NCBI GenBank assembly: GCA_964501135.1
Contig: CAZCRI010000001.1
Span: 128,393-192,392, forward strand
Direction of reading: 5' to 3'
Origin: an uncultured Candidatus Saccharibacteria bacterium
Lineage (GTDB): Bacteria; Patescibacteriota; CPR2; UBA1875; CAIMLA01
DNA: 64,000 nucleotides
Below, piece after piece: positions 7,996 to 64,000 of this stretch. The notes beneath the pieces are model-generated. The model saw nothing but the letters and a program-made list of their open reading frames with translations, did not search any database and was not told the DNA's origin. Each line of letters opens with the position of its first letter. Within the stretch, counting starts at the first letter, position 1. The translations under genes and the position numbers were made by a program.

Positions 7996-9069
7996 ATGAA
8001 ACTACCAGAGATTAATCTTCGTAAGCTCAAGGGCTTTCTCTTTCAGCACCGAATTAGTGTGGCGATTGTTTTCGTCGCTATTGTCGCTGCTTGCGGAGCT
8101 ACCTGGTATGGCCTAAGCAGGAACATCTCGGTCGATTTGGGCCCGCTAAAACTAAAAGAGAAGGTGGAAACGCGAGTTCCGGCCCCTCTCACTGGTGAGC
8201 TCGTCGATTCTTCGGTTATCACAAAGCGGCCAATCGCTGTCGTGATTGAGAATCACCCTGATGCGAGGCCACAGAGTGGCTACAATGATGCAGATCTTGT
8301 ATATGAGACGCTTGCTGAAGGTGGAATCACTCGTACCTTGGCGATCTTCCAGTCCAAGAGCAGTAACGAAATTGGCCCAGTTCGTTCGGCACGCTCATAT
8401 TTTGTTGATTGGTTGACCGCCTACGGGGCACTTTTTGGTCATGTTGGGGGTAATGCCGATGCACTCGATCTGGTTTCACAGATTGGGGTTGCAGATTTGA
8501 ATCAGTTCTATAACGGTGGCAATTACTGGCGTTCAAGTGATCGCTACGCGCCACATAATGTTTACACTACCACAGACAAGCTCTATGCTGCGGCTAAGGC
8601 TAATAATCTCTCTACAACCGCAACGGTTGGTAGTCTAAAATTCAAGAAAGATCTAGTCGAAAAAGATCGACCCGCAACTCAAAACGTTAGTATTGAATTC
8701 TCATACGGAGACTTTACTGCTGGCTATACCTACGTACCAAAGACAAATACTTACTCGCGTTCAATTGCGGGGGAAGCAGCTAAAGATAAGAATACGGGAA
8801 TCCAAATTGCACCAAAGAACGTAATCGTGGAATTTACTCCGATTACACCTTATGTTAATTACGCCGGTGAGCAAGGAGTACGGATTACCGACATTGGTAG
8901 CGGCTCCGGATATCTATTTCAGGATGGTAAGTCCGTAAAGATTACTTGGTCAAAGAGTTCAAGGGAAGCAAGGACAAAGTATACTGACGAAAGCGGCAAG
9001 GAAATCGAGCTTAATCCTGGGCAGACCTGGATCGAAGTTGTTCCTACTGGAAATAGTGTGACTTTCTAA
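7996..9069 (+). CDS. DUF3048 (YerB-like) membrane-anchored extracytoplasmic protein
   Basis: N-terminal TM; conserved core PIAVVIENHPDARPQSGYNDADLVYETLAEGGITRTLAIF. Confidence 0.6.
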   Translation: MKLPEINLRKLKGFLFQHRISVAIVFVAIVAACGATWYGLSRNISVDLGPLKLKEKVETRVPAPLTGELVDSSVITKRPIAVVIENHPDARPQSGYNDADLVYETLAEGGITRTLAIFQSKSSNEIGPVRSARSYFVDWLTAYGALFGHVGGNADALDLVSQIGVADLNQFYNGGNYWRSSDRYAPHNVYTTTDKLYAAAKANNLSTTATVGSLKFKKDLVEKDRPATQNVSIEFSYGDFTAGYTYVPKTNTYSRSIAGEAAKDKNTGIQIAPKNVIVEFTPITPYVNYAGEQGVRITDIGSGSGYLFQDGKSVKITWSKSSREARTKYTDESGKEIELNPGQTWIEVVPTGNSVTF

Positions 9070-21574: not shown

Positions 21575-21966
21575 GTTCAGCTAGCTAGACAATCGCCCCC
21601 TTGGGGGAGGAAAGTCCGGGCACTACATGATTGGAATAGTTGCTAACGGCAACCGGTCGTGAGGCTAGGGAAAGTGCCACAGAGACAATACTGCCGATGG
21701 CTCGAAAGAGTACAGGTGATGGTGAAAAGAGTGAGGTAAGAGCGCACAGTGGGTTGTGGTGACACAACTCAGAGGTAAACCCTATTTGGTGCAAGACAGG
21801 TGGGCTAGGGTAAGGTCGATATGATCGCTTGGGGTAAAATCCAAGTAGTCTCCAATTCGAAAAAGCTGTAATCAGAGCCCCTTACCTGCGGTCCTGTCGC
21901 GTAGATAGATGATTGTCAGATCCTAGCAATAGGACGAACAAAACCCGGCTTATCGGCTAACTGAAC
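21575..21966 (+). ncRNA. rnpB: RNase P RNA, bacterial type A
   Basis: P4 strands GGAAAGTCCGGGC and ACAAAACCCGGCTTATCGG; P1 pairing GTTCAGCTAGC/GCTAACTGAAC; extended -10 TGtTATAAT at 21560-21568; terminator follows. Confidence 0.85.
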
Positions 21967-21970
21967 ACTA

Positions 21971-41672: not shown

Positions 41673-41749
41673 TGGTGGGTGATACAGGGCTCGAACCTGT
41701 GACCTCTGCAATGTCAATGCAACGCTCTAGCCAGCTGAGCTAATCACCC
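41673..41749 (-). tRNA. tRNA-Val (anticodon GAC), CCA encoded
   Basis: minus strand GGGTGAT...anticodon loop TTGACAT...T-loop TTCGAGC...ATCACCCACCA. Confidence 0.8.
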
Positions 41750-49225: not shown

Positions 49226-49621
49226 TGGTGGAGCTGGTGGGTACTGCCCCCACGTCCGAAAGCGAAGCCGAAATAATTTGTAACAATCATACTCGGGACT
49301 GGTAGTTTTGGTGCTGATGGTCAAGTCTCGAGAAAATCCATCGGCCTTATCCTCTAGAGTTTCAGGTTAGCTTAGAGAAGTCACTAGCCCTACCCCTGAC
49401 ATATATGGCACTCAGTAGCGAACGATTCAGGTCTCACTCACAAGAGCGGTTACTGCGTATTAGGCAGCAACTGGCGCAAAGCTGTTTACGCTGAAAGCGC
49501 TAGCAACCTTACTAACAAAGTTTTTTGCAACTATGTCTGATCTGCTGAATAACGCGGACAGACCACCGCGGATTGTATCATTTCGATTTCAAGATACCTT
49601 CGTCGAAGCTAATTCAGCCCC
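49226..49621 (-). ncRNA. ssrA: tmRNA (SsrA), standard one-piece
   Basis: minus strand 5' GGGGCUGAAUUAGCUUCGACGAAGG..., 3' ...GUGGGGGCAGUACCCACCAGCUCCACCA; acceptor pairing with G3-U70; resume GCA after AUAGUU; predicted tag (A)KNFVSKVASAFSVNSFAPVAA ending UAA; smpB 3.6 kb away. Confidence 0.8.
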
Positions 49622-58803: not shown

Positions 58804-59139
58804 ATGGCCTACGATTTAGAACAAAAGGCCTTAATGTTTAGTAAAAATGTATTCATATTTTGCAAAGCATTGCCCCAGGATGCTGTGACTAGACCCATAA
58901 TAAGTCAGGTAGTCCGCTCTTCTGCCTCCATCGGGGCAAATTACATAGAAGCAAACGAGTCTTTGGGCAAGAAGGATCTCGTCTATAAACTAAAAATTTC
59001 TCGCAAAGAAGCAAAAGAAACTATTTATTGGCTAGAAATAATGTCTACGGTAGTTTCTTCAGAGGAGATTAAGAAATTATCCGAGGAGGCCCTACAGCTC
59101 AAAAAGATTCTGTCCTCGATAATCATTAAGTCATCTTAG
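58804..59139 (+). CDS. four-helix-bundle protein (23S rRNA intervening-sequence protein family)
   Basis: AAAGGAGGGGAG RBS; family pattern SSASIGANYIEANESLGKKDLVYKLKISRKEAKETIYWLEI. Confidence 0.65.
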   Translation: MAYDLEQKALMFSKNVFIFCKALPQDAVTRPIISQVVRSSASIGANYIEANESLGKKDLVYKLKISRKEAKETIYWLEIMSTVVSSEEIKKLSEEALQLKKILSSIIIKSS

Positions 59140-59172: not shown

Positions 59173-60384
59173 ATGAGAATAATTTTACATATCGACATGA
59201 ATTCATATTTTGCGACTGTGGAGCAGCAGGCCAATCCGAAACTTCGTGGCAAGCCAATCGCGGTGATGGGTAGTACGGCGAAGCGAAGCATTATTGTGGC
59301 AGCAAGTATCGAAGCGAAACGCTACGGGGTAAAGACGGCGACAAGAATTGATGAGGCGTTGCGGCTTTGTCCGGAGTTAATTCTTGTAAATGGCGAGCCA
59401 CGGAAGTATAGCTGGGTGACGAAGAAGTTCATTGATATATTCGAGGATTATACCGATAAGGTGGAGATATTCTCTATCGACGAAGCCTTCTTGGATGTAA
59501 CCAAGACGGCAAATATTTATGGCGGAGCGGAGCAAATCGCTCTCTCCATCAAACAGCGAATCCGCAATGAGATCGGCAGCTATATTTCTTGCTCAGTTGG
59601 GATTGCAAAGAATAAGTTTTTGGCAAAGACTGGTAGCGACCTTGTAAAGCCAGATGGACTCACTATTATTACGGACGAGAATGTTGACGACATTCTGTTG
59701 CCGCTGCCTCTCTCGGAATTTTGTGGTATTGGTAGAAGAATATTGGCGCGTCTGGGCGCACTGGGAATCGAAACTACCCAGCAACTCCGTGATTATCCAA
59801 ACGTGCTACTAAATCGAGAGTTTGGAATTGCCAGCGGAGAAAAGTTAAAACGAATGGCTTATGGCTTGGATAATTCACCAGTAATCAGCCGACATGATAG
59901 AGCCGATGCCAAGTCTTATGGACATTCTAGGACGTTGAATAAGAATGTCACTGACAGAAATGAGATACGGAAACACATGCTATTACTCTCGGAAAAAGTG
60001 GCTACCAGAATGCGCAAGGATGGCTGCATGGCCAAAGAGGTGGGTCTCTGGATTCGTTTTGGAGACTTTACCGGAGTGGGGCAACGCCATCGTGTTGGTA
60101 AGTGGACTCATGATGGGGTAGAAATCTACGATGCGGCGGTAAAAATATTGGGGACGCTAGATCTGCGGGCGCCGGTACGGGCTATCGGGATTTATGCGGC
60201 TCAGATTCAGAGAGATTCCTGCACTACGGTGAGCCTACTCCCCGAAGACACAATCAACGACAAGATCCTGGCGGCTATGGATGCGGTGAATAATCGTTTC
60301 GGCGAGACGGTAGTAACTCGTGCCAGGCTAGCTGGGGTCAAAATCAAGGAGGTGGTTTCCGGTATGGGGAGGGATAAGTTCTAG
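59173..60384 (+). CDS. dinB: DNA polymerase IV (Y-family translesion polymerase)
   Basis: ILHIDMNSYFATVE, SIDEAFLDVT catalytic motifs. Confidence 0.85.
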   Translation: MRIILHIDMNSYFATVEQQANPKLRGKPIAVMGSTAKRSIIVAASIEAKRYGVKTATRIDEALRLCPELILVNGEPRKYSWVTKKFIDIFEDYTDKVEIFSIDEAFLDVTKTANIYGGAEQIALSIKQRIRNEIGSYISCSVGIAKNKFLAKTGSDLVKPDGLTIITDENVDDILLPLPLSEFCGIGRRILARLGALGIETTQQLRDYPNVLLNREFGIASGEKLKRMAYGLDNSPVISRHDRADAKSYGHSRTLNKNVTDRNEIRKHMLLLSEKVATRMRKDGCMAKEVGLWIRFGDFTGVGQRHRVGKWTHDGVEIYDAAVKILGTLDLRAPVRAIGIYAAQIQRDSCTTVSLLPEDTINDKILAAMDAVNNRFGETVVTRARLAGVKIKEVVSGMGRDKF

Positions 60385-60396
60385 AAATGTGTTGAC

Positions 60397-60425
60397 GTCT
60401 ATTTTTCCTCGGTATATATTAGCGA
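60397..60425 (+). promoter_or_regulatory. strong sigma70-like promoter reading into ORF-free region
   Basis: TTGACG - 17 nt - TATATT. Confidence 0.5.
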
Positions 60426-61092
60426 TACGCTGAAAAACCTGAATACTCGGAATTAAGGTTACTTAAGCGTGTTCCTCTACCCCTGCAACCGAATTGCCTT
60501 GTGTGCATATACTGTCGCCGGGAGATAGTGAATATAACCGATGCAAGATGCGGGATCAACACCTTTCCGAGTAGGTGGGTCTCTCGCAAACTGGGACTGG
60601 CGGAAAAGTAGGCCGCGATAACAACAGAGGGTTTGCCTCAGTGGTCCACGCCGAAAGAGGTAGGCATAGAATTAGCCGACGCAACCTCCGCCGTTTCAAA
60701 GTCCAAGTCTACTACGTACCAGCTTCGTTTCAGGTACCTCTTGTAGGCGCAAGCCCTAGTCGAAACGCTGCGTTTGCTGCTGCCCTCGGGGCGGTAGGGA
60801 TGTAAGCTCACTGGCTGGGCAAAGTTCGGTGCCAGTAAGGCCCGCATGTAGAGTTGCGTAATGTCGCCACGGAGCAGAGAGCTCACGGCGCAGAGACTCC
60901 TACACGGGAACCGATTGGTACAAATCTAGGCCGGCATGGTGACCGTTACTGTGGTCACTTTGCCCTCGTTCGCGGATTTCGAACCGCGATTACGGGGGCC
61001 ATGCCAGCCCCTTCCATAGCTACAAACGCCTTGACAGAGGCATATATATAGGTTATACTCTTTTCTTGGTGCACTTCGGTGCCCATTTTCAT

Positions 61093-61201
61093 GGGGGGTA
61101 GCTCAGTGGATAGAGCGCCGTTTGTCAGATGGTCCGATCAACGGGTCATATCATCTGACGCTCGACGGAGGTCACAGGTTCGAGCCCTGTCCCCCCCACC
61201 A
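61093..61201 (+). tRNA. tRNA-like gene with canonical acceptor, D and T arms but a 34-nt insertion in the anticodon arm; identity undetermined
   Basis: GGGGGG.TAGCTCAGTGGATAGAGC..CCGTT[41 nt]GACGG-AGGTC-ACAGGTTCGAGCCCTGT-CCCCCCC-A-CCA; insertion forms 8-bp stem GTCAGATG/CATCTGAC. Confidence 0.55.
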
Positions 61202-61524
61202 AAAACTCTACGTCTACATGGCGTATGCACCATATATCGCAAGTGCGATTGCCCGTCCTTGAGGAGGATCCGCGGAGGGAGCTCCAAGGAGCTGTGGTTC
61301 GAAACCGCAACGGGCACCAGAACCTCCTCGAGTGTTACAAGGCAGCTTACGCTGCAACGTTTCGCTCGTAATAGGCCAGCTGAATAAGGCCAAGGGTCAC
61401 AAAGGATTCTCACAATCGAGACCTAGTCCCACTGTTCAGCGCCCATCAGACCCCCGACTGATGGTTCGGGAGTAATCCCAAAGCACGGCTCGGAGTCCTT
61501 CGACGGTACTTGTACCACAACGAA

Positions 61525-61548
61525 GGCCTTCGGGCCTTTTCAATTCAG
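61525..61548 (+). terminator. terminator-like hairpin ending the ORF-free region
   Basis: GGCCTTCGGGCC followed by TTTTCAATT. Confidence 0.5.
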
Positions 61549-61560
61549 TCGTAAGAAGCG

Positions 61561-62265
61561 TTATTTTTGGCAGATGATATTGAGATTACGAGTTTTCCGG
61601 TGGAAGTCGTAAGTTTGGATGTTCTTGAATTTTGCGGCTCGTAGATACTGCTTCAGTTCCCTTACCGTCCAGGCATGAAGATATCTCTCGGTAATCAGTT
61701 CTGATTTTGAATTTTTCCAAGGACGAAAGAAGTCGCCAAAGGGTAAACCATTGTGAGAAAATAGCGATTTTAGGATTCTCTTTAGATACTCTGGCTTGTT
61801 CCAGAAGTACCAGGTCTCGGTAAAAGCCCATCCTCCAGGTTTGCAAACTCGATACATTTCAGCCAAGAATTGATGTCTGGTTTCGGGTGATGGTAGATGG
61901 TGAATGGTGGCAATAGTCAGAACGATATCAAAATAATCGTCCTTGTAGGGCAGGTCGGTACCGCTCCCTACTGTGTAGTGAGCCTGCGGGTATTTCTCTT
62001 TAGCAATCGCGATGAGCTCCTTGCTGAGGTCGATGCCATAGTAGTCAACATCGTAACCGGGAAACATTTCCGAAACTCTTCCGGCGCCACAACCAATATC
62101 GAGAACCTTAAGTTTTGAACCCTTCTCAAAATGGGAGAGAATGTCGTTTATCGTCGCGCCAACTTCGGGCCAGTTGTATTTACGAGTGCTCGCAAACTGG
62201 ACCGCAATCAGGTTATAATCATCACGGGTTTTGTCTATTAACTTTTGAGCAGTTTGTTTATTCAT
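61561..62265 (-). CDS. class I SAM-dependent methyltransferase
   Basis: motif I VLDIGCGAGR, motif post-I/II present. Confidence 0.75.
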   Translation of the reverse strand: MNKQTAQKLIDKTRDDYNLIAVQFASTRKYNWPEVGATINDILSHFEKGSKLKVLDIGCGAGRVSEMFPGYDVDYYGIDLSKELIAIAKEKYPQAHYTVGSGTDLPYKDDYFDIVLTIATIHHLPSPETRHQFLAEMYRVCKPGGWAFTETWYFWNKPEYLKRILKSLFSHNGLPFGDFFRPWKNSKSELITERYLHAWTVRELKQYLRAAKFKNIQTYDFHRKTRNLNIICQK

Positions 62266-63835
62266 GAATGTAAAAAAAGAAATTATTTATAATCTAATCG
62301 GTGAGAAGGCGCGAACACGGGCTGATTTTCGTCGTGTCGTCGCCTCGGTGTATAGAGATGATAACACGAGCGGGTATCACTCGAACATTGATTTACGCGA
62401 AACCTATGAGGAAATGGTGGCGAATGACGAGATTGACGTTGACGAAAATATTGAAAAACTGCTAATGACCAAGAAAATGCGTTCACTTTCGGGAGTTTCT
62501 GTTATCACGGTCCTTACGAAGCCTTATCCATGCCCTGGAAAGTGTATTTATTGTCCCAGTATTGTCGATGTGCCAAAGAGTTACCTGCCCGATGAGCCGG
62601 CTGTGATGCGAGCGATTCTTGCAGGATATGACGCCAAGAAACAGGTAGAAACGAGATTGAAGTCTCTAGTTCGTCAGGGTCATCCAGTAGATAAAGTAGA
62701 GCTGATTGTGATTGGTGGTACTTACAGTCATTTACCTCGTGAATATCAAGAAAACTTTATTAAAGATTGTTTTGATGCTCTGAATGGGACACTATCGGAG
62801 AGTTTGGCGGATGCCAAAACCCGAAATGAATCAGCGGATTCTCGCTGTGTTGGTCTAACGCTAGAGACCAGACCCGACCACATCACGCCGGACGAAGTGG
62901 CCTGGTTCCGGTATTTGGGAGCGACCAGGGTGGAGCTTGGGGTACAAAGTGTTTATGACGATGTTTTGAAGTTGAATGGTAGGGGCGAAAAAGTAGCAGC
63001 GACAGTTGCGGCTACGCGACTACTCAAGGATGCAGGATTCAAGATTTGCTATCATCTAATGCCAAATCTTTACGGCTCCGACCTGGTTCGTGACAAAGAA
63101 ATGTTTCATATTGTTTTTACTGACCCTCGTTTTTGCCCGGATTACATCAAAATATATCCTTGTATGGTGATGGAAAACACGCCGCTTTATAAACTCTGGA
63201 GAGAGGGTAGATACGTCAGCTATACCGATGATGAGCTTATAGATTTAATCTGCGAGGTAAAGCAAAATGTGCCGTACTGGATACGAATTATGCGCACTAT
63301 TCGTGATATTCCGGCGCCAAACATTGAATCTGGATCCAAAATGTCCAATATGCGCCAGATTATTTTGCAAAAAGCAGAGCAAGAGGGGTGGTCGTGTAAT
63401 TGTATTCGATGTCGCGAGATAGGGGCGAAAGCCCAGGCCGAAGTCGACGAAATCATTCAATTTACGGAGAAATACGAAGCTAGTAAGGGCCAGGAATATT
63501 TTCTTAGCTATGAAGATAAGGCAAGAAGAAATCTCTATTCATTGCTAAGATTGCGCTTTCCCGGAGAAAACGAAATAGCAGAAGTGCTGCCAGAAATAGC
63601 CGAGTGTGCTCTAATCCGAGAGGTACATACCTATGGCCAACAGATTGAGATTGGCGAGCAGGGTGAGACGCAGCACCGCGGTTACGGCAAAAAGTTGATA
63701 GCCGAAGCCGAGAAACAAGCCCGTGAAAAAGGTTATAAAAAGATTGCAGTGATCTCGGGTGTGGGTGTGCGTGGTTACTATCAGAAATTTGGTTATGAAC
63801 TTCACGGCGAGTATATGGTAAAAACACTCGACTAA
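62264..63835 (+). CDS. Elp3-family radical-SAM/GNAT protein (tRNA U34 carboxymethyluridine synthase homolog)
   Basis: radical SAM cluster motif CPGKCIYCPS, central rSAM core, C-terminal GNAT (RGYGKKLIAEAEKQAREKGYKKIAVISGVGVRGYYQKFGY). Confidence 0.75.
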   Translation: MNVKKEIIYNLIGEKARTRADFRRVVASVYRDDNTSGYHSNIDLRETYEEMVANDEIDVDENIEKLLMTKKMRSLSGVSVITVLTKPYPCPGKCIYCPSIVDVPKSYLPDEPAVMRAILAGYDAKKQVETRLKSLVRQGHPVDKVELIVIGGTYSHLPREYQENFIKDCFDALNGTLSESLADAKTRNESADSRCVGLTLETRPDHITPDEVAWFRYLGATRVELGVQSVYDDVLKLNGRGEKVAATVAATRLLKDAGFKICYHLMPNLYGSDLVRDKEMFHIVFTDPRFCPDYIKIYPCMVMENTPLYKLWREGRYVSYTDDELIDLICEVKQNVPYWIRIMRTIRDIPAPNIESGSKMSNMRQIILQKAEQEGWSCNCIRCREIGAKAQAEVDEIIQFTEKYEASKGQEYFLSYEDKARRNLYSLLRLRFPGENEIAEVLPEIAECALIREVHTYGQQIEIGEQGETQHRGYGKKLIAEAEKQAREKGYKKIAVISGVGVRGYYQKFGYELHGEYMVKTLD

Positions 63836-63977
63836 ATAGACTTTTTCTGGTATAATTTACCAGTTACATTAACTGTTCTAATCCTCCTCTGTCATCCTGA
63901 GGAGCGAAATGGAATTTTCGCGACGTAAGGATCTAGATTCTTCGACAGCGCTCAGAATGACAAAAGGGAGAAAATCT

Positions 63978-64000
63978 ATGAACATTAGGAATATCGCAAT
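63978..64000 (+). CDS. start of an unidentified gene running off the window
   Basis: AAGGGAG RBS 8 nt before ATG 63978. Confidence 0.3.

What the first reader, a model, noticed from the sequence alone, without database searches (positions are those of the whole stretch)
61093..61201. Otherwise canonical tRNA with a 34-nt insertion forming an extended anticodon arm
Seen in sequence. The acceptor is six G-C pairs plus CCCCCCC-A-CCA, with the first pair apparently U-C. The D-arm (TA-GCTC-AGTGGATA-GAGC-G), the 5-nt variable loop AGGTC and the T-arm (ACAGG-TTCGAGC-CCTGT) are all textbook. Between anticodon-stem strands CCGTT (61118-61122) and GACGG (61164-61168) there are 41 nt instead of 7. Within them GTCAGATG (61124-61131) pairs perfectly with CATCTGAC (61152-61159), enclosing a 20-nt loop. 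No placement of a 34-nt intron restores a loop with U33. A 37/38 intron would give loop UGUCAG|C with anticodon UCA. So this is a bacterial tRNA with a short non-group-I insertion, a disrupted gene, or a tRNA-like regulatory RNA. It is not a standard selenocysteine tRNA, because the D and T arms are class I with a 7-bp acceptor.
Basis: seen in the sequence. Interest (0 to 1): 0.65.

Follow-up and report, generated by a model that had tools for sequence, protein, structure and literature searches.

The report
Non-decoding tRNA-like module in a Patescibacteria RNA gene
The sequence really is a tRNA-shaped RNA whose anticodon loop is replaced by a long hairpin, and comparison with related genomes suggests it is not a working tRNA but one of several interchangeable tRNA-like modules in a previously undescribed non-coding RNA gene of a Patescibacteria (CPR) lineage.

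Summary
Window 61092-61201(+) scores 43.6 bits on Rfam tRNA and folds as a perfect cloverleaf. It has all the tertiary-contact bases, A73-CCA and a U1xC72 mismatch, but 41 nt lie between the anticodon-stem strands and form a roughly 20-bp hairpin. No canonical 7-nt loop with U33 can be restored in the normal register. ARAGORN's intron mode only gives "Asp(GUC) + 36 nt" by shifting the stem, and the body is Val-like with A73.

The element lies in a 1.2-kb ORF-free gap (dinB / methyltransferase-Elp3) of a Patescibacteria genome. It follows a consensus sigma-70 promoter and a leader hairpin. Downstream come a second, anticodon-less mini tRNA-like (61250-61319), a structured 3' domain and a terminator.

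Nine syntenic relatives keep the gap, eight with the promoter, but the tRNA-like slot varies. Some carry other non-canonical tRNA-likes, with 57-115-nt anticodon-arm inserts, 32-38-nt variable arms, or loops such as UUAAAAA or CCACUAA. Others carry a non-tRNA four-way junction or nothing.

Best reading (about 0.5): a tRNA-derived structural and processing module that RNase P and 3'-end enzymes recognise, not an intron-containing tRNA. Function is untested. This is a new variant of a known kind, closest to the tRNAs embedded in GOLLD RNA.

The parts
61031..61059 (+). Promoter P2 (TTGACA-17-TATACT)
   Evidence: It matches 11 of 12 consensus positions. A consensus-like promoter at the same place can be read in L002, L003, L021, L023, L025, L106, L107 and L109. 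The transcription start near 61066 is inferred.
61068..61083 (+). 5' leader hairpin (GGUGCAC-UUCG-GUGCC) followed by CAUUUUCAU
   Evidence: The terminator-like scan flagged it. Analogous leader hairpins sit before the tRNA-like slot in L002 and L023. Its 5' strand GGUGCA can alternatively pair with UGCACC at 61226-61231 (MFE). In L023 the corresponding pair is GGUAUG/UGUACC. This pairing is read from the sequences and is only an inference.
61092..61201 (+). tRNA-like module #1 (the finding): a complete cloverleaf with the anticodon loop replaced by a long hairpin, ending in A73-CCA
   Evidence: Rfam tRNA scores 43.6 bits. The MFE and centroid structures are both the cloverleaf. ARAGORN finds it only in intron mode.
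61092..61098 (+). Acceptor stem 5' strand, UGGGGGG. It pairs with 61191-61197 (CCCCCCC), with 1:72 = UxC
   Evidence: Because there are 7 C against 6 G, the fold can also slip to U1-A73.
61101..61116 (+). D-arm GCUC-AGUGGAUA-GAGC, with G18 and G19 present
   Evidence: It is near-identical to the D-arm of the window's tRNA-Val(GAC): one substitution and one 1-nt gap.
61118..61168 (+). Extended anticodon arm. The basal stem is CCGUU/GACGG, and the 41 nt between its strands (61123-61163) form 11 + 4 further pairs capped by an AACG tetraloop. There is no 7-nt loop
   Evidence: -21.4 kcal/mol, z = -3.45. The sequence is unique in the window and in all fetched loci. The 3' strand contains CUGAC (61155-61159), the same pentamer as positions 32-36 of the GAC loop of L106 tRNA-like #1. 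Here it is locked in the helix.
61169..61190 (+). Variable loop AGGUC plus T-arm ACAGG-UUCGAGC-CCUGU
   Evidence: It is identical over 23 nt to the tRNA-Val(GAC) at 41673-41749(-).
61198..61201 (+). Discriminator A73 and the encoded CCA
   Evidence: All five canonical tRNAs of the window also encode CCA. NCCA is kept in all eight tRNA-like modules of related loci.
61210..61232 (+). Trailer hairpin ACGUC-UACAU-GGCGU followed by AUGCACCA
   Evidence: It is the most widely conserved motif of the unit. Versions occur in L002, L003, L021, L023 and L106. In L002 one pair changes from U.G to C-G.
61250..61319 (+). Mini tRNA-like module #2. It has a 6-7-bp acceptor, a small D-like arm, the hairpin AGCUC-CAAG-GAGCU in place of an anticodon arm, the T-arm UGUGG-UUCGAAA-CCGCA, and A-CCA
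   Evidence: A pattern scan for T-arm + acceptor + NCCA finds it. In both strands of the 64-kb window, the scan's only other distinct elements are the five true tRNAs; it also gives one overlapping alternative 5'-strand pairing (61120-61319) to this same T-arm and 3' end. The fold is a four-way cloverleaf, z = -2.16. L002 8897-8966 has the same fold, with G-CCA and pairs changed on both sides.
61320..61522 (+). Structured 3' domain of the transcription unit
   Evidence: It is highly similar between the window and L002. Across the whole 61202-61552 alignment, 6 predicted pairs changed on both sides and stayed paired. There is no protein-level conservation and no Rfam match at E <= 10.
61523..61542 (+). 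Terminator-like hairpin AAGGCC-UUCG-GGCCUU followed by UUUC
   Evidence: It is read from the sequence. It is conserved in L002 and has counterparts in L003, L021, L023 and L025. The scanning tool did not call it, because the U-run is short.

Best explanation
The element is a tRNA-derived but decoding-incompetent tRNA-like module. It probably arose from a tRNA-Val(GAC)-type gene. It forms the 5' part of a clade-specific non-coding RNA transcription unit in a Patescibacteria genome.

Shown:
- Everything that builds the tRNA L-shape and the acceptor end is intact. This includes the acceptor/T-arm stack, U8-A14, G15-C48, G18G19 with the T-loop U54U55C56 (Psi55 if modified as in tRNA), G26-A44, and the encoded A73-CCA.
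- The anticodon loop is replaced by a closed hairpin of about 20 bp, so no anticodon can be presented.
- The unit has its own consensus promoter, a leader hairpin, a second anticodon-less mini tRNA-like with CCA, a conserved structured 3' domain and a terminator.
- In relatives the first slot is a variable cassette. It holds other non-canonical tRNA-likes, a non-tRNA four-way junction, or nothing.

Inferred mechanism:
- The primary transcript is recognised as a pre-tRNA by RNase P. The window encodes a type-A RNase P RNA whose L15 keeps the GGU that pairs with RCCA.
- RNase P removes the roughly 26-nt leader at 61092/61093, where U is at -1 or +1.
- The tRNA 3'-end machinery cuts after CCA. 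This releases or defines a stable 110-nt tRNA-shaped RNA and the downstream RNA.
- The tRNA fold therefore acts as a processing, stability or tRNA-mimic chassis, and the arm extension is a tolerated or displayed insert, not an intron.

Whether either tRNA-like is aminoacylated, and what the mature RNAs do, is unknown.
For: (1) Real tRNA fold: Rfam 43.6 bits and a cloverleaf MFE.

(2) No decodable loop:
- 41 nt form a continuous hairpin.
- In the canonical register every possible splice leaves G or A at position 33 (read from the sequence).
- ARAGORN's Asp(GUC) solution needs a shifted stem with a G.A pair. By established knowledge bacterial tRNA-Asp needs G73 and C38; here the bases are A73 and G38.
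- The exons are closest to the window's own tRNA-Val(GAC), with 59 of 69 positions identical.

(3) Helices are kept by paired changes, so this is not decay. Against tRNA-Val, acceptor pairs 4, 6 and 7 changed on both sides.

(4) Context:
- The gap 60385-61560 is ORF-poor and has two consensus promoters.
- There is no protein-level conservation beyond the near-identical relative.
- The organism is a Patescibacteria.

(5) Synteny, dinB-gap-MTase-Elp3:
- Flanks are 85-90% identical in L002, but the slot holds a different 240-nt four-way junction.
- Rfam tRNA hits in the same slot are L025 (52.7 bits, about 60-nt insert), L106 x2 (45.1 bits with a 38-nt variable arm; 41.6 bits with loop CCACUAA) and L107 (54 bits, Leu-like body, loop UUAAAAA, 32-nt variable arm).
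- L021 and L023 have acceptor + T-arm + GCCA with large arm expansions.
- L003, L109 and L111 have none.
- In the roughly 208 kb scanned with Rfam, every non-canonical tRNA hit lies in this slot.

(6) A second anticodon-less tRNA-like (61250-61319) is conserved in L002 with compensatory changes.

(7) The RNase P RNA at 21577-21968 aligns UGGUGAC to the L15 consensus uGGuAAC.

(8) Precedent: GOLLD RNAs carry tRNAs in their variable linker (PMC12286853).
Against: - There are no expression or processing data. The transcription start, the RNase P cut and the 3' cut are all inferred.
- The window's particular insert exists in one sequence only, so covariation cannot test it.
- Only ten syntenic loci were available, and they diverge so fast that the 3' domain aligns poorly beyond L002.
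- A module that the closest relative lacks may be dispensable, which fits a neutral passenger as well as a functional part.
- The L025 module can be 'spliced' in silico to a Cys-like loop UUGCAAA with matching U73, if a 6-bp stem is allowed. This keeps an intron-type reading alive for some members.
- Many viral contigs carry tRNA genes with short inserts that do restore canonical loops.
Confidence: 0.5

Rival explanations
1. It is a functional tRNA gene with a short (34-36 nt) non-group-I intervening sequence. The insert is removed after transcription by an unknown bacterial or phage-type cut-and-ligate pathway, yielding tRNA-Asp(GUC) or a UCA reader.
For: - ARAGORN in intron mode returns tRNA-Asp(GUC) with a 36-nt intron and a U33-containing loop UUGUCAG.
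- All other tRNA features, a strong promoter and CCA are present.
- Patescibacteria tRNA-Asp and tRNA-Asn genes are often missed by annotation tools because of introns (PMC13011429).
- L025 at the same locus can be restored to a Cys-like loop with U73.
- At least 96 tRNA genes in IMG/VR contigs receive short-insert calls of 5-49 nt.
- Lak megaphages have 'enigmatic' tRNA introns (PMC6784885).
Against: - In the canonical register no splice gives U33.
- The ARAGORN register needs a G.A pair, no nucleotide 26 and a 4-nt variable loop.
- A73 and G38 and a Val-like D-arm and T-arm contradict Asp identity (plus established identity rules).
- A UCA reader would be a suppressor in a genome whose long table-11 ORFs show that UGA is a stop.
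- Known Patescibacteria tRNA introns are group I and 184-894 nt long. There is no Rfam intron hit.
- The arm has a single 3-nt bulge, so there is no bulge-helix-bulge motif.
- The nearest relative has no tRNA in this slot.
- Sister modules carry other defects that no splicing would cure: an AAA anticodon on a Leu body, C33, and 32-38-nt variable arms.
Confidence: 0.12
2. It is a decaying duplicate (pseudogene) of a tRNA-Val-type gene that was inactivated by an inverted-repeat insertion in the anticodon loop. It would have no function and would merely be co-transcribed with a neighbouring RNA gene.
For: - The exons are closest to the window's tRNA-Val(GAC).
- The 3' strand of the hairpin contains CUGAC, like a GAC anticodon loop, and its partner strand is the exact reverse complement.
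- The module is absent from the closest relative.
- The 1:72 pair is mismatched.
Against: - Every helix and every tertiary-contact base is intact.
- Three acceptor pairs and the whole anticodon stem differ from tRNA-Val yet remain paired.
- NCCA is retained in all eight modules of the locus family, while the anticodon regions are what vary.
- A second, conserved anticodon-less tRNA-like lies 50 nt downstream.
- Non-canonical tRNA hits occur only in this slot in about 208 kb of scanned sequence.
Confidence: 0.2
3. It is a tRNA mimic that is aminoacylated or bound by tRNA-handling proteins but kept off the ribosome. Examples would be a donor for non-ribosomal aminoacyl transfer, or a decoy or sponge for anticodon nucleases or modification enzymes such as the adjacent Elp3/Trm9-like pair.
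For: - The acceptor end is intact with A73-CCA.
- By established knowledge, the 1:72 mismatch would weaken EF-Tu binding.
- L025 has G3:U70, the AlaRS determinant, and L107 has a Leu-like body with A73. Both systems ignore the anticodon.
- Elp3 and a Methyltransf_11 enzyme are the conserved neighbours.
Against: - Identity elements are not conserved between modules: the discriminator is A, U or G, and G3:U70 occurs in one locus only.
- The neighbourhood is simply vertical synteny and the RNA is convergent to the methyltransferase.
- There are no biochemical data.
Confidence: 0.1

Closest known systems
Canonical bacterial elongator tRNA (Rfam RF00005), specifically the tRNA-Val(GAC) at window 41673-41749(-)
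   Same: It has the cloverleaf, a 7-nt acceptor strand, U8, G18G19, a T-loop of the canonical UUCRANN form, a 5-nt variable loop and an encoded A73-CCA. Of the 69 exon positions, 59 are identical, including the whole variable loop and T-arm.
   Different: It has 41 nt in place of the 7-nt anticodon loop, so there is no anticodon. The 1:72 pair is a U x C mismatch. Default tRNA finders miss it.
tRNAs embedded in the variable linker of GOLLD RNA, and the tRNA-associated ROOL RNA
   Same: A large structured non-coding RNA unit has a variable part that sometimes carries tRNA(-like) genes covalently linked to a more conserved 3' region (PMC12286853; PMC5737381).
   Different: Rfam finds no GOLLD or ROOL match here even at E <= 10. 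The setting is chromosomal in Patescibacteria, not phage, and no viral matches were found. The embedded modules here are non-decoding. The unit is shorter, about 490 nt.
Intron-containing tRNA genes: group I introns in Patescibacteria and cyanobacteria, archaeal and eukaryal BHB introns, and Lak megaphage 'enigmatic introns'
   Same: There is extra sequence inside the anticodon arm of an otherwise normal tRNA gene, and annotation tools miss the gene (PMC13011429; PMC6784885).
   Different: The insert is 34-41 nt, against 184-894 nt for group I introns. There is no ribozyme core and no BHB motif. No canonical loop can be restored in the normal register.
tRNA-like processing modules of long non-coding RNAs (MALAT1 mascRNA, plant tRNA-snoRNA precursors, MHV68 TMERs) and tRNA-like domains of tmRNA and YrlA
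   Same: A tRNA-shaped fold without a usable anticodon is recognised by the tRNA end-processing enzymes, and it defines or stabilises neighbouring RNA. This comes from my own knowledge; titles of related papers appear.
   Different: Those examples are eukaryotic or viral. The exceptions, tmRNA and YrlA, have a different topology in which the ends form the acceptor of a much larger RNA, or the acceptor is closed. Here the tRNA-like is a complete free-ended cloverleaf with CCA. The window's real tmRNA is elsewhere, at 49226-49621.
Engineered 'tRNA scaffold' RNAs (an insert grafted onto the anticodon stem of a tRNA for stable expression)
   Same: The architecture is the same: an intact tRNA body with a foreign hairpin continuing the anticodon stem. 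This comes from my own knowledge.
   Different: That is a laboratory design. A natural bacterial counterpart has not, to my knowledge or in the searched literature, been described.

Membership tests
tRNA (structural family, Rfam RF00005) | A cloverleaf that scores above the curated gathering score of 29 bits | tested here: met
   It scores 43.6 bits with the full model 1-71 matched. The MFE structure is the cloverleaf.
Functional decoding tRNA | A 7-nt anticodon loop with U33 and a purine at position 37, on a 5-bp stem in the canonical register | tested here: not met
   41 nt lie between the stem strands and form a closed hairpin. Every splice in the canonical register gives G or A at position 33. 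The only solution with U33 needs a shifted stem with a G.A pair.
Functional decoding tRNA | A Watson-Crick or wobble 1:72 pair (elongator tRNAs), and identity elements that agree with the anticodon | tested here: not met
   The 1:72 pair is U x C. The GUC reading conflicts with A73 and G38 and with the Val-like arms (plus established tRNA-Asp identity rules).
Functional decoding tRNA | An orthologous gene retained in close relatives | tested here: not met
   L002 (Elp3 85% identical, flanks 85-90% identical) has a non-tRNA junction in the slot.
Group I intron-containing tRNA | An intron with a group I catalytic core (Rfam RF00028), typically 180 nt or longer | tested here: not met
   The insert is 34-41 nt. 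Rfam gives no intron hit at E <= 10. The published range in Patescibacteria is 184-894 nt.
Archaeal/eukaryal-type spliced tRNA | A bulge-helix-bulge motif (two 3-nt bulges 4 bp apart) at the exon-intron junctions, with the intron usually at 37/38 | tested here: not met
   The predicted arm has one 3-nt bulge only (61161-61163) and none on the opposite strand. A 37/38 splice gives the loop UGUCAGC, which lacks U33.
tRNA-Sec (selC) | An 8/5 or 9/4 acceptor/T geometry, a 6-bp D-stem, a long variable arm and a UCA anticodon | tested here: not met
   It has a 7/5 geometry, a 4-bp D-stem and a 5-nt variable loop.
GOLLD / ROOL / OLE / HEARO large ncRNAs | A match to the family covariance model | tested here: not met
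   There is no match in 59500-64000 at E <= 10, and none in related loci.
RNase P substrate (pre-tRNA-like) | A coaxial acceptor/T-arm stack of about 12 bp with an intact T-loop/D-loop elbow and a 3' RCCA | tested here: met
   All these sequence features are present. The window's RNase P RNA keeps the L15 GGU. Actual cleavage cannot be tested with these tools.
Miniature inverted-repeat / repeated palindromic element inserted in a tRNA | The same hairpin sequence present at other sites | tested here: not met
   There is a single copy in the window with up to 3 mismatches allowed, and none in the 111 loci held at that point.

The most novel reading that the evidence does not exclude
The insert is a genuine new kind of bacterial tRNA intervening sequence. 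It would be short, with neither a group I core nor a BHB motif, and it would be excised and religated or otherwise bypassed. On this reading the locus encodes conditionally matured tRNAs. It would be related to the many short-insert tRNA genes seen in viral contigs and to the 'enigmatic introns' of Lak megaphages.
Probability: 0.08. Interest if true: 0.9.

Novelty: new variant of a known kind. Interest (0 to 1): 0.6.

Why it matters
tRNA-shaped modules that cells use for something other than decoding are well known in eukaryotes, in viruses and in tmRNA. A free-ended, CCA-bearing bacterial cloverleaf with a hairpin grafted onto the anticodon stem has not been described in the literature I could search.

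Here it is embedded with a second anticodon-less tRNA-like in a conserved, promoter-driven RNA gene.

If the reading is right, three things follow:
- It defines a new non-coding RNA family in Patescibacteria, a phylum with minimal genomes in which every retained RNA is likely to matter.
- It gives a natural counterpart of the engineered 'tRNA scaffold'.
- It warns that Rfam-positive but ARAGORN-negative 'tRNAs' in CPR genomes should not be counted as decoders or as intron-containing genes without checking the anticodon loop.

It also offers a simple, directly testable system: RNase P cleavage and end mapping of one roughly 490-nt transcript.

Tried and rejected
- Group I intron: too short, and no Rfam hit.
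- BHB-type intron: no second bulge.
- tRNA-Sec or a UGA reader: wrong geometry, and the window's genes read through normally with table 11.
- Repeated or mobile palindrome: single copy.
- Antisense target of the apical 21 nt within the window: none with up to 3 mismatches.
- Hidden protein gene in the gap: six-frame tblastn similarity appears between the near-identical window/L002 pair in all six frames, plus a few weak L106-L107 matches (>=1e-5) at shared RNA motifs. None reaches the other loci.
- Known large RNAs (GOLLD, ROOL, OLE, HEARO, 6S, SRP, Y RNA): no Rfam match.
- Phage origin: three exact-pattern scans of IMG/VR for the T-arm/acceptor, the 3' domain and the ncRNA-1 motif found nothing.
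- Exact look-ups of the window's DinB and methyltransferase failed.
- The single genome-collection scan returned only one close relative.
- The single metagenome scan was swamped by distant Elp3 genes, and none of those loci has an ARAGORN-detectable intron-type tRNA-like next to Elp3.
- My first whole-element fold used a truncated range, 61092-61191, and should be ignored. One search is the correct one.
- A global MAFFT alignment of the 3' domains of nine loci was not informative beyond the window/L002 pair.
Full report
**1. The observation**

- UGGGGGG (61092-61098) faces CCCCCCC (61191-61197), so the first pair is U x C. A73 follows at 61198 and an encoded CCA at 61199-61201.
- U8, A9, the D-arm GCUC-AGUGGAUA-GAGC (61101-61116) and G26 are textbook. 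So are the variable loop AGGUC (61169-61173) and the T-arm ACAGG-UUCGAGC-CCUGU (61174-61190).
- All bases that make the tertiary contacts of the L-shape are present: U8/A14, G15/C48, G18G19 with U54U55C56, and G26/A44.
- Between CCGUU (61118-61122) and GACGG (61164-61168) lie 41 nt.

Rfam's tRNA model matches 61092-61198 at 43.6 bits against a gathering score of 29, with E = 5.6e-6 for the whole window. The complete 110 nt has the cloverleaf as both MFE and centroid structure (-46.7 kcal/mol, z = -2.55).

The arm alone folds to -21.4 kcal/mol (z = -3.45; none of 200 shuffles folds as well). It has five basal pairs, a 3-nt bulge (CUC), eleven contiguous pairs, a 2x2 internal loop, four more pairs and an AACG tetraloop. 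The feature is therefore real and non-random.

**2. Can it decode?**

ARAGORN in its default mode does not report the gene. With intron search it reports tRNA-Asp(GUC) with a 36-nt intron and the loop UUGUCAG.

That solution shifts the anticodon stem by one position, to GCCGU/ACGGA with a G.A pair. It also deletes nucleotide 26 and shortens the variable loop to 4 nt.

The Asp reading also disagrees with the rest of the molecule. By established identity rules, bacterial tRNA-Asp has G73 and C38, whereas this RNA has A73 and G38. Its exons are most similar to the window's own tRNA-Val(GAC) at 41673-41749(-). They share 59 of 69 positions, including an identical 23-nt variable loop plus T-arm.

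The 3' strand of the hairpin contains CUGAC, the pentamer of a GAC anticodon loop. The opposite strand is its exact complement. The simplest history is a Val-type tRNA whose anticodon loop became locked in a helix by an inverted-repeat insertion; this is an inference.

The insert has none of the hallmarks of a known intron or repeat:
- It is far too short for a group I intron. Published Patescibacteria tRNA introns are 184-894 nt (PMC13011429), and Rfam finds no intron here.
- It lacks a bulge-helix-bulge motif.
- It is not a repeated element.

A UCA reading would make a suppressor in a genome whose genes are intact under table 11.

**3. Context**

The element sits in a 1.2-kb gap without credible ORFs (60385-61560). 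On one side is a Y-family polymerase gene, dinB (59173-60384, +). On the other is a Methyltransf_11 methyltransferase (61561-62265, -), followed by a bacterial Elp3 (62264-63835, +).

Elp3 relatives and a syntenic MAG identify the organism as a Patescibacteria (CPR) bacterium.

The gap has two near-consensus sigma-70 promoters, at 60392-60420 and 61031-61059. The second is followed by these elements in order:
- a leader hairpin (61068-61083);
- the tRNA-like (61092-61201);
- a conserved hairpin followed by AUGCACCA (61210-61232);
- further structure;
- a terminator-like hairpin (61523-61542).

The terminator-like hairpin lies 23 nt from the stop codon of the convergent methyltransferase gene.

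Six-frame comparison shows no protein-level conservation of the gap among relatives. The exceptions are the near-identical window/L002 pair, which matches in all frames, and a few weak L106-L107 matches at shared RNA motifs.

**4. Relatives**

Ten loci share the dinB-gap-methyltransferase-Elp3 arrangement, and their Elp3 proteins are 66-100% identical.

The closest is L002 (Elp3 85% identical). Its flanks are 85-90% identical to the window on both sides. From the -35 box to the conserved trailer hairpin, however, the window's 170 nt are replaced by 260 unrelated nucleotides. These fold into a four-way junction without a T-loop or CCA, and there is no Rfam tRNA hit even at E <= 1.

Further relatives keep the promoter, with a leader of varying form, but fill the slot differently:
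- **L025 4889-5023.** Rfam scores it 52.7 bits, and it carries an insert of about 60 nt in the anticodon loop. It has G3:U70 and U73. Removing 57 nt would give UUGCAAA on a 6-bp stem.
- **L106 3563-3671.** Rfam scores it 45.1 bits. It has the acceptor GGGGGGU, A73-CCA, a normal CUGACAA loop and a 38-nt variable arm.
- **L106 3676-3751.** Rfam scores it 41.6 bits. Its loop is CCACUAA, with C33.
- **L107 4008-4111.** Rfam scores it 54 bits. It has a Leu/Ser-type body, the loop UUAAAAA and a 32-nt variable arm. A more degenerate copy lies upstream.
- **L021 and L023.** Each has acceptor + T-arm + GCCA, with greatly expanded D and/or anticodon arms.
- **L003, L109 and L111.** These have no tRNA-like.

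In about 208 kb scanned with Rfam there are five canonical tRNAs and five non-canonical tRNA hits. All five non-canonical hits lie in this one slot.

Across the modules, the acceptor/T-arm half and NCCA stay constant. The anticodon and variable regions differ or are disabled. The 'identity' elements (discriminator, G3:U70, anticodon) are not conserved. The modules therefore do not look like orthologues of one decoding tRNA.

**5. A second tRNA-like**

I wrote a scan for T-arm + perfectly paired acceptor + NCCA. In both strands of the 64-kb window, its only other distinct elements are the five true tRNAs. It also gives one overlapping alternative 5'-strand pairing, 61120-61319, to the same T-arm and 3' end. 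The scan also finds 61251-61319.

Extended by one pair, 61250-61319 folds into a miniature cloverleaf. It has:
- a 6-7-bp acceptor;
- a small D-like arm;
- a 5-bp hairpin with a CAAG tetraloop where the anticodon arm should be;
- the T-arm UGUGG-UUCGAAA-CCGCA;
- A-CCA at the 3' end.

L002 has the same fold at 8897-8966, ending in G-CCA. Several pairs there changed on both sides, and the middle arm differs (9 bp with a 7-nt loop). A conserved part of this RNA unit is therefore also an anticodon-less tRNA mimic.

Across the window/L002 alignment downstream of tRNA-like #1 (61202-61552), 6 predicted pairs changed on both sides and stayed paired.

**6. Most likely mechanism (confidence about 0.5)**

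Shown:
- The fold is an intact tRNA with no anticodon.
- It has its own promoter.
- A second tRNA-like lies downstream.
- The first slot behaves as a variable cassette.

Inferred: the tRNA-like is a processing, stability or mimicry module, not an adaptor.

Bacterial RNase P recognises the acceptor/T-arm stack, the elbow and the 3' RCCA. It does not recognise the anticodon arm. The window encodes a type-A RNase P RNA (21577-21968) whose L15 aligns as UGGUGAC to the consensus uGGuAAC, and all tRNAs of the window encode CCA.

Cleavage at 61092/61093 would remove the roughly 26-nt leader. Processing at the 3' end after CCA would separate a 110-nt tRNA-shaped RNA from the downstream RNA. The same logic applies to module #2.

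The leader strand GGUGCA can alternatively pair with UGCACC of the trailer. L023 has GGUAUG/UGUACC and L003 has GGUGCA/UGUACC, so a leader-trailer helix that changes on processing is possible. With four sequences this is only a lead.

The U1 x C72 mismatch would be expected to weaken EF-Tu binding, by established knowledge. That fits a non-translational role, but the mismatch is not conserved in the sister modules.

**7. Rival explanations**

- **Spliced tRNA (0.12).** ARAGORN's call, L025's restorable loop and the abundance of short-insert tRNA genes in viral contigs keep this alive. The points in section 2 and the defects of the sister modules speak against it.
- **Decaying duplicate (0.20).** The Val-like exons and the absence from L002 support it. 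However, all helices are intact. Three acceptor pairs and the whole anticodon stem changed while staying paired, and NCCA is always kept.
- **Charged or protein-binding mimic (0.10).** This is compatible with the data but untested, and the identity elements vary between modules.

**8. Comparison with known systems**

The element is a member of the tRNA structural family, since the Rfam threshold is met. It fails the tests for a decoding tRNA. It also fails the tests for a group I or BHB intron-containing tRNA, for tRNA-Sec, and for GOLLD/ROOL.

In function it most resembles the tRNAs carried in the variable linker of GOLLD RNA (PMC12286853). It also resembles the tRNA-like processing modules of MALAT1 and viral TMER RNAs and the tRNA-like domains of tmRNA and YrlA; these last comparisons rest on my own knowledge.

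Architecturally it is a natural version of the engineered tRNA scaffold.

Literature searches found no description of such elements in Patescibacteria or other bacteria.

**9. Limits**

- There are no expression data.
- The window's specific insert is known from one sequence only.
- Only ten syntenic loci were available, and they diverge quickly.
- The capped database scans are exhausted.

The verdict is that this is a real and unusual object. It is best filed as a new variant of tRNA-like modules embedded in non-coding RNAs. Its biological role is unknown.

Noticed in passing
window 60392-61020 (+): Upstream of the tRNA-like unit there is a second, roughly 600-nt ORF-free segment with its own consensus promoter (60392-60420). 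It ends in a three-way junction (60929-61009). It is conserved in L002, L023 and L003, with blocks such as ACGCUGAAA...ACUCGG and CCGAGUAGGUGGGU and with pairs changed on both sides in the terminal junction. Rfam finds no match. It is absent from L021, L025, L106, L107 and L109. It is a candidate novel large structured RNA.
   Followed up: partly
L112-L234 (IMG/VR viral contigs): I searched for a D-arm and T-arm separated by 50-75 nt instead of the usual 27. Of the 123 hits, 96 are called by ARAGORN as tRNAs with inserts of 5-49 nt. For example, 18 are tRNA-Ile(UAU), and in the example read by eye (L113) a roughly 37-nt insert at 37/38 restores the loop CUUAUAA. Seventeen hit sequences contain the motif A[ACT]AGCAA. 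The hosts of these viruses (bacterial, archaeal or eukaryotic) were not determined.
   Followed up: partly
window 61561-63835: The conserved neighbours are a Methyltransf_11 methyltransferase (-) and a radical-SAM/GNAT Elp3 (+), whose annotated start codons overlap head to head at 62264/62265. This pairing looks like an Elp3 + Trm9-like tRNA U34 (mcm5U-type) modification pair in a bacterium. Whether this is linked to the adjacent tRNA-like RNA is unknown.
   Followed up: no
L025 4835-4870 and L107 3795-3830: The long leaders upstream of the tRNA-likes in these two loci share the motif CAAAGAGA(C/U)GCUCA(A/C)AAGGC(G/A)UACGGC, with a compensatory C-G to U-A change. L106 and L107 share a long leader stem, CUAGUCCCUUC...GAAGGGACUAG.
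   Followed up: no
L111 4110-4210: In the most distant syntenic locus the gap has no promoter and no tRNA-like. Instead it has four copies of AAGCGAGCCA, with successive copies starting about 37-40 nt apart.
   Followed up: no
window 58804-59139 (+): This is a free-standing gene for a '23S rRNA intervening sequence protein' (PF05635), just upstream of dinB.
   Followed up: no
window 21577-21968 (+) and 49226-49621 (-): The window contains an ordinary type-A RNase P RNA (186.9 bits) and a one-piece tmRNA (84 bits). I used them only as context. The RNase P RNA has a roughly 48-nt expansion where the model expects 15 nt.
   Followed up: no
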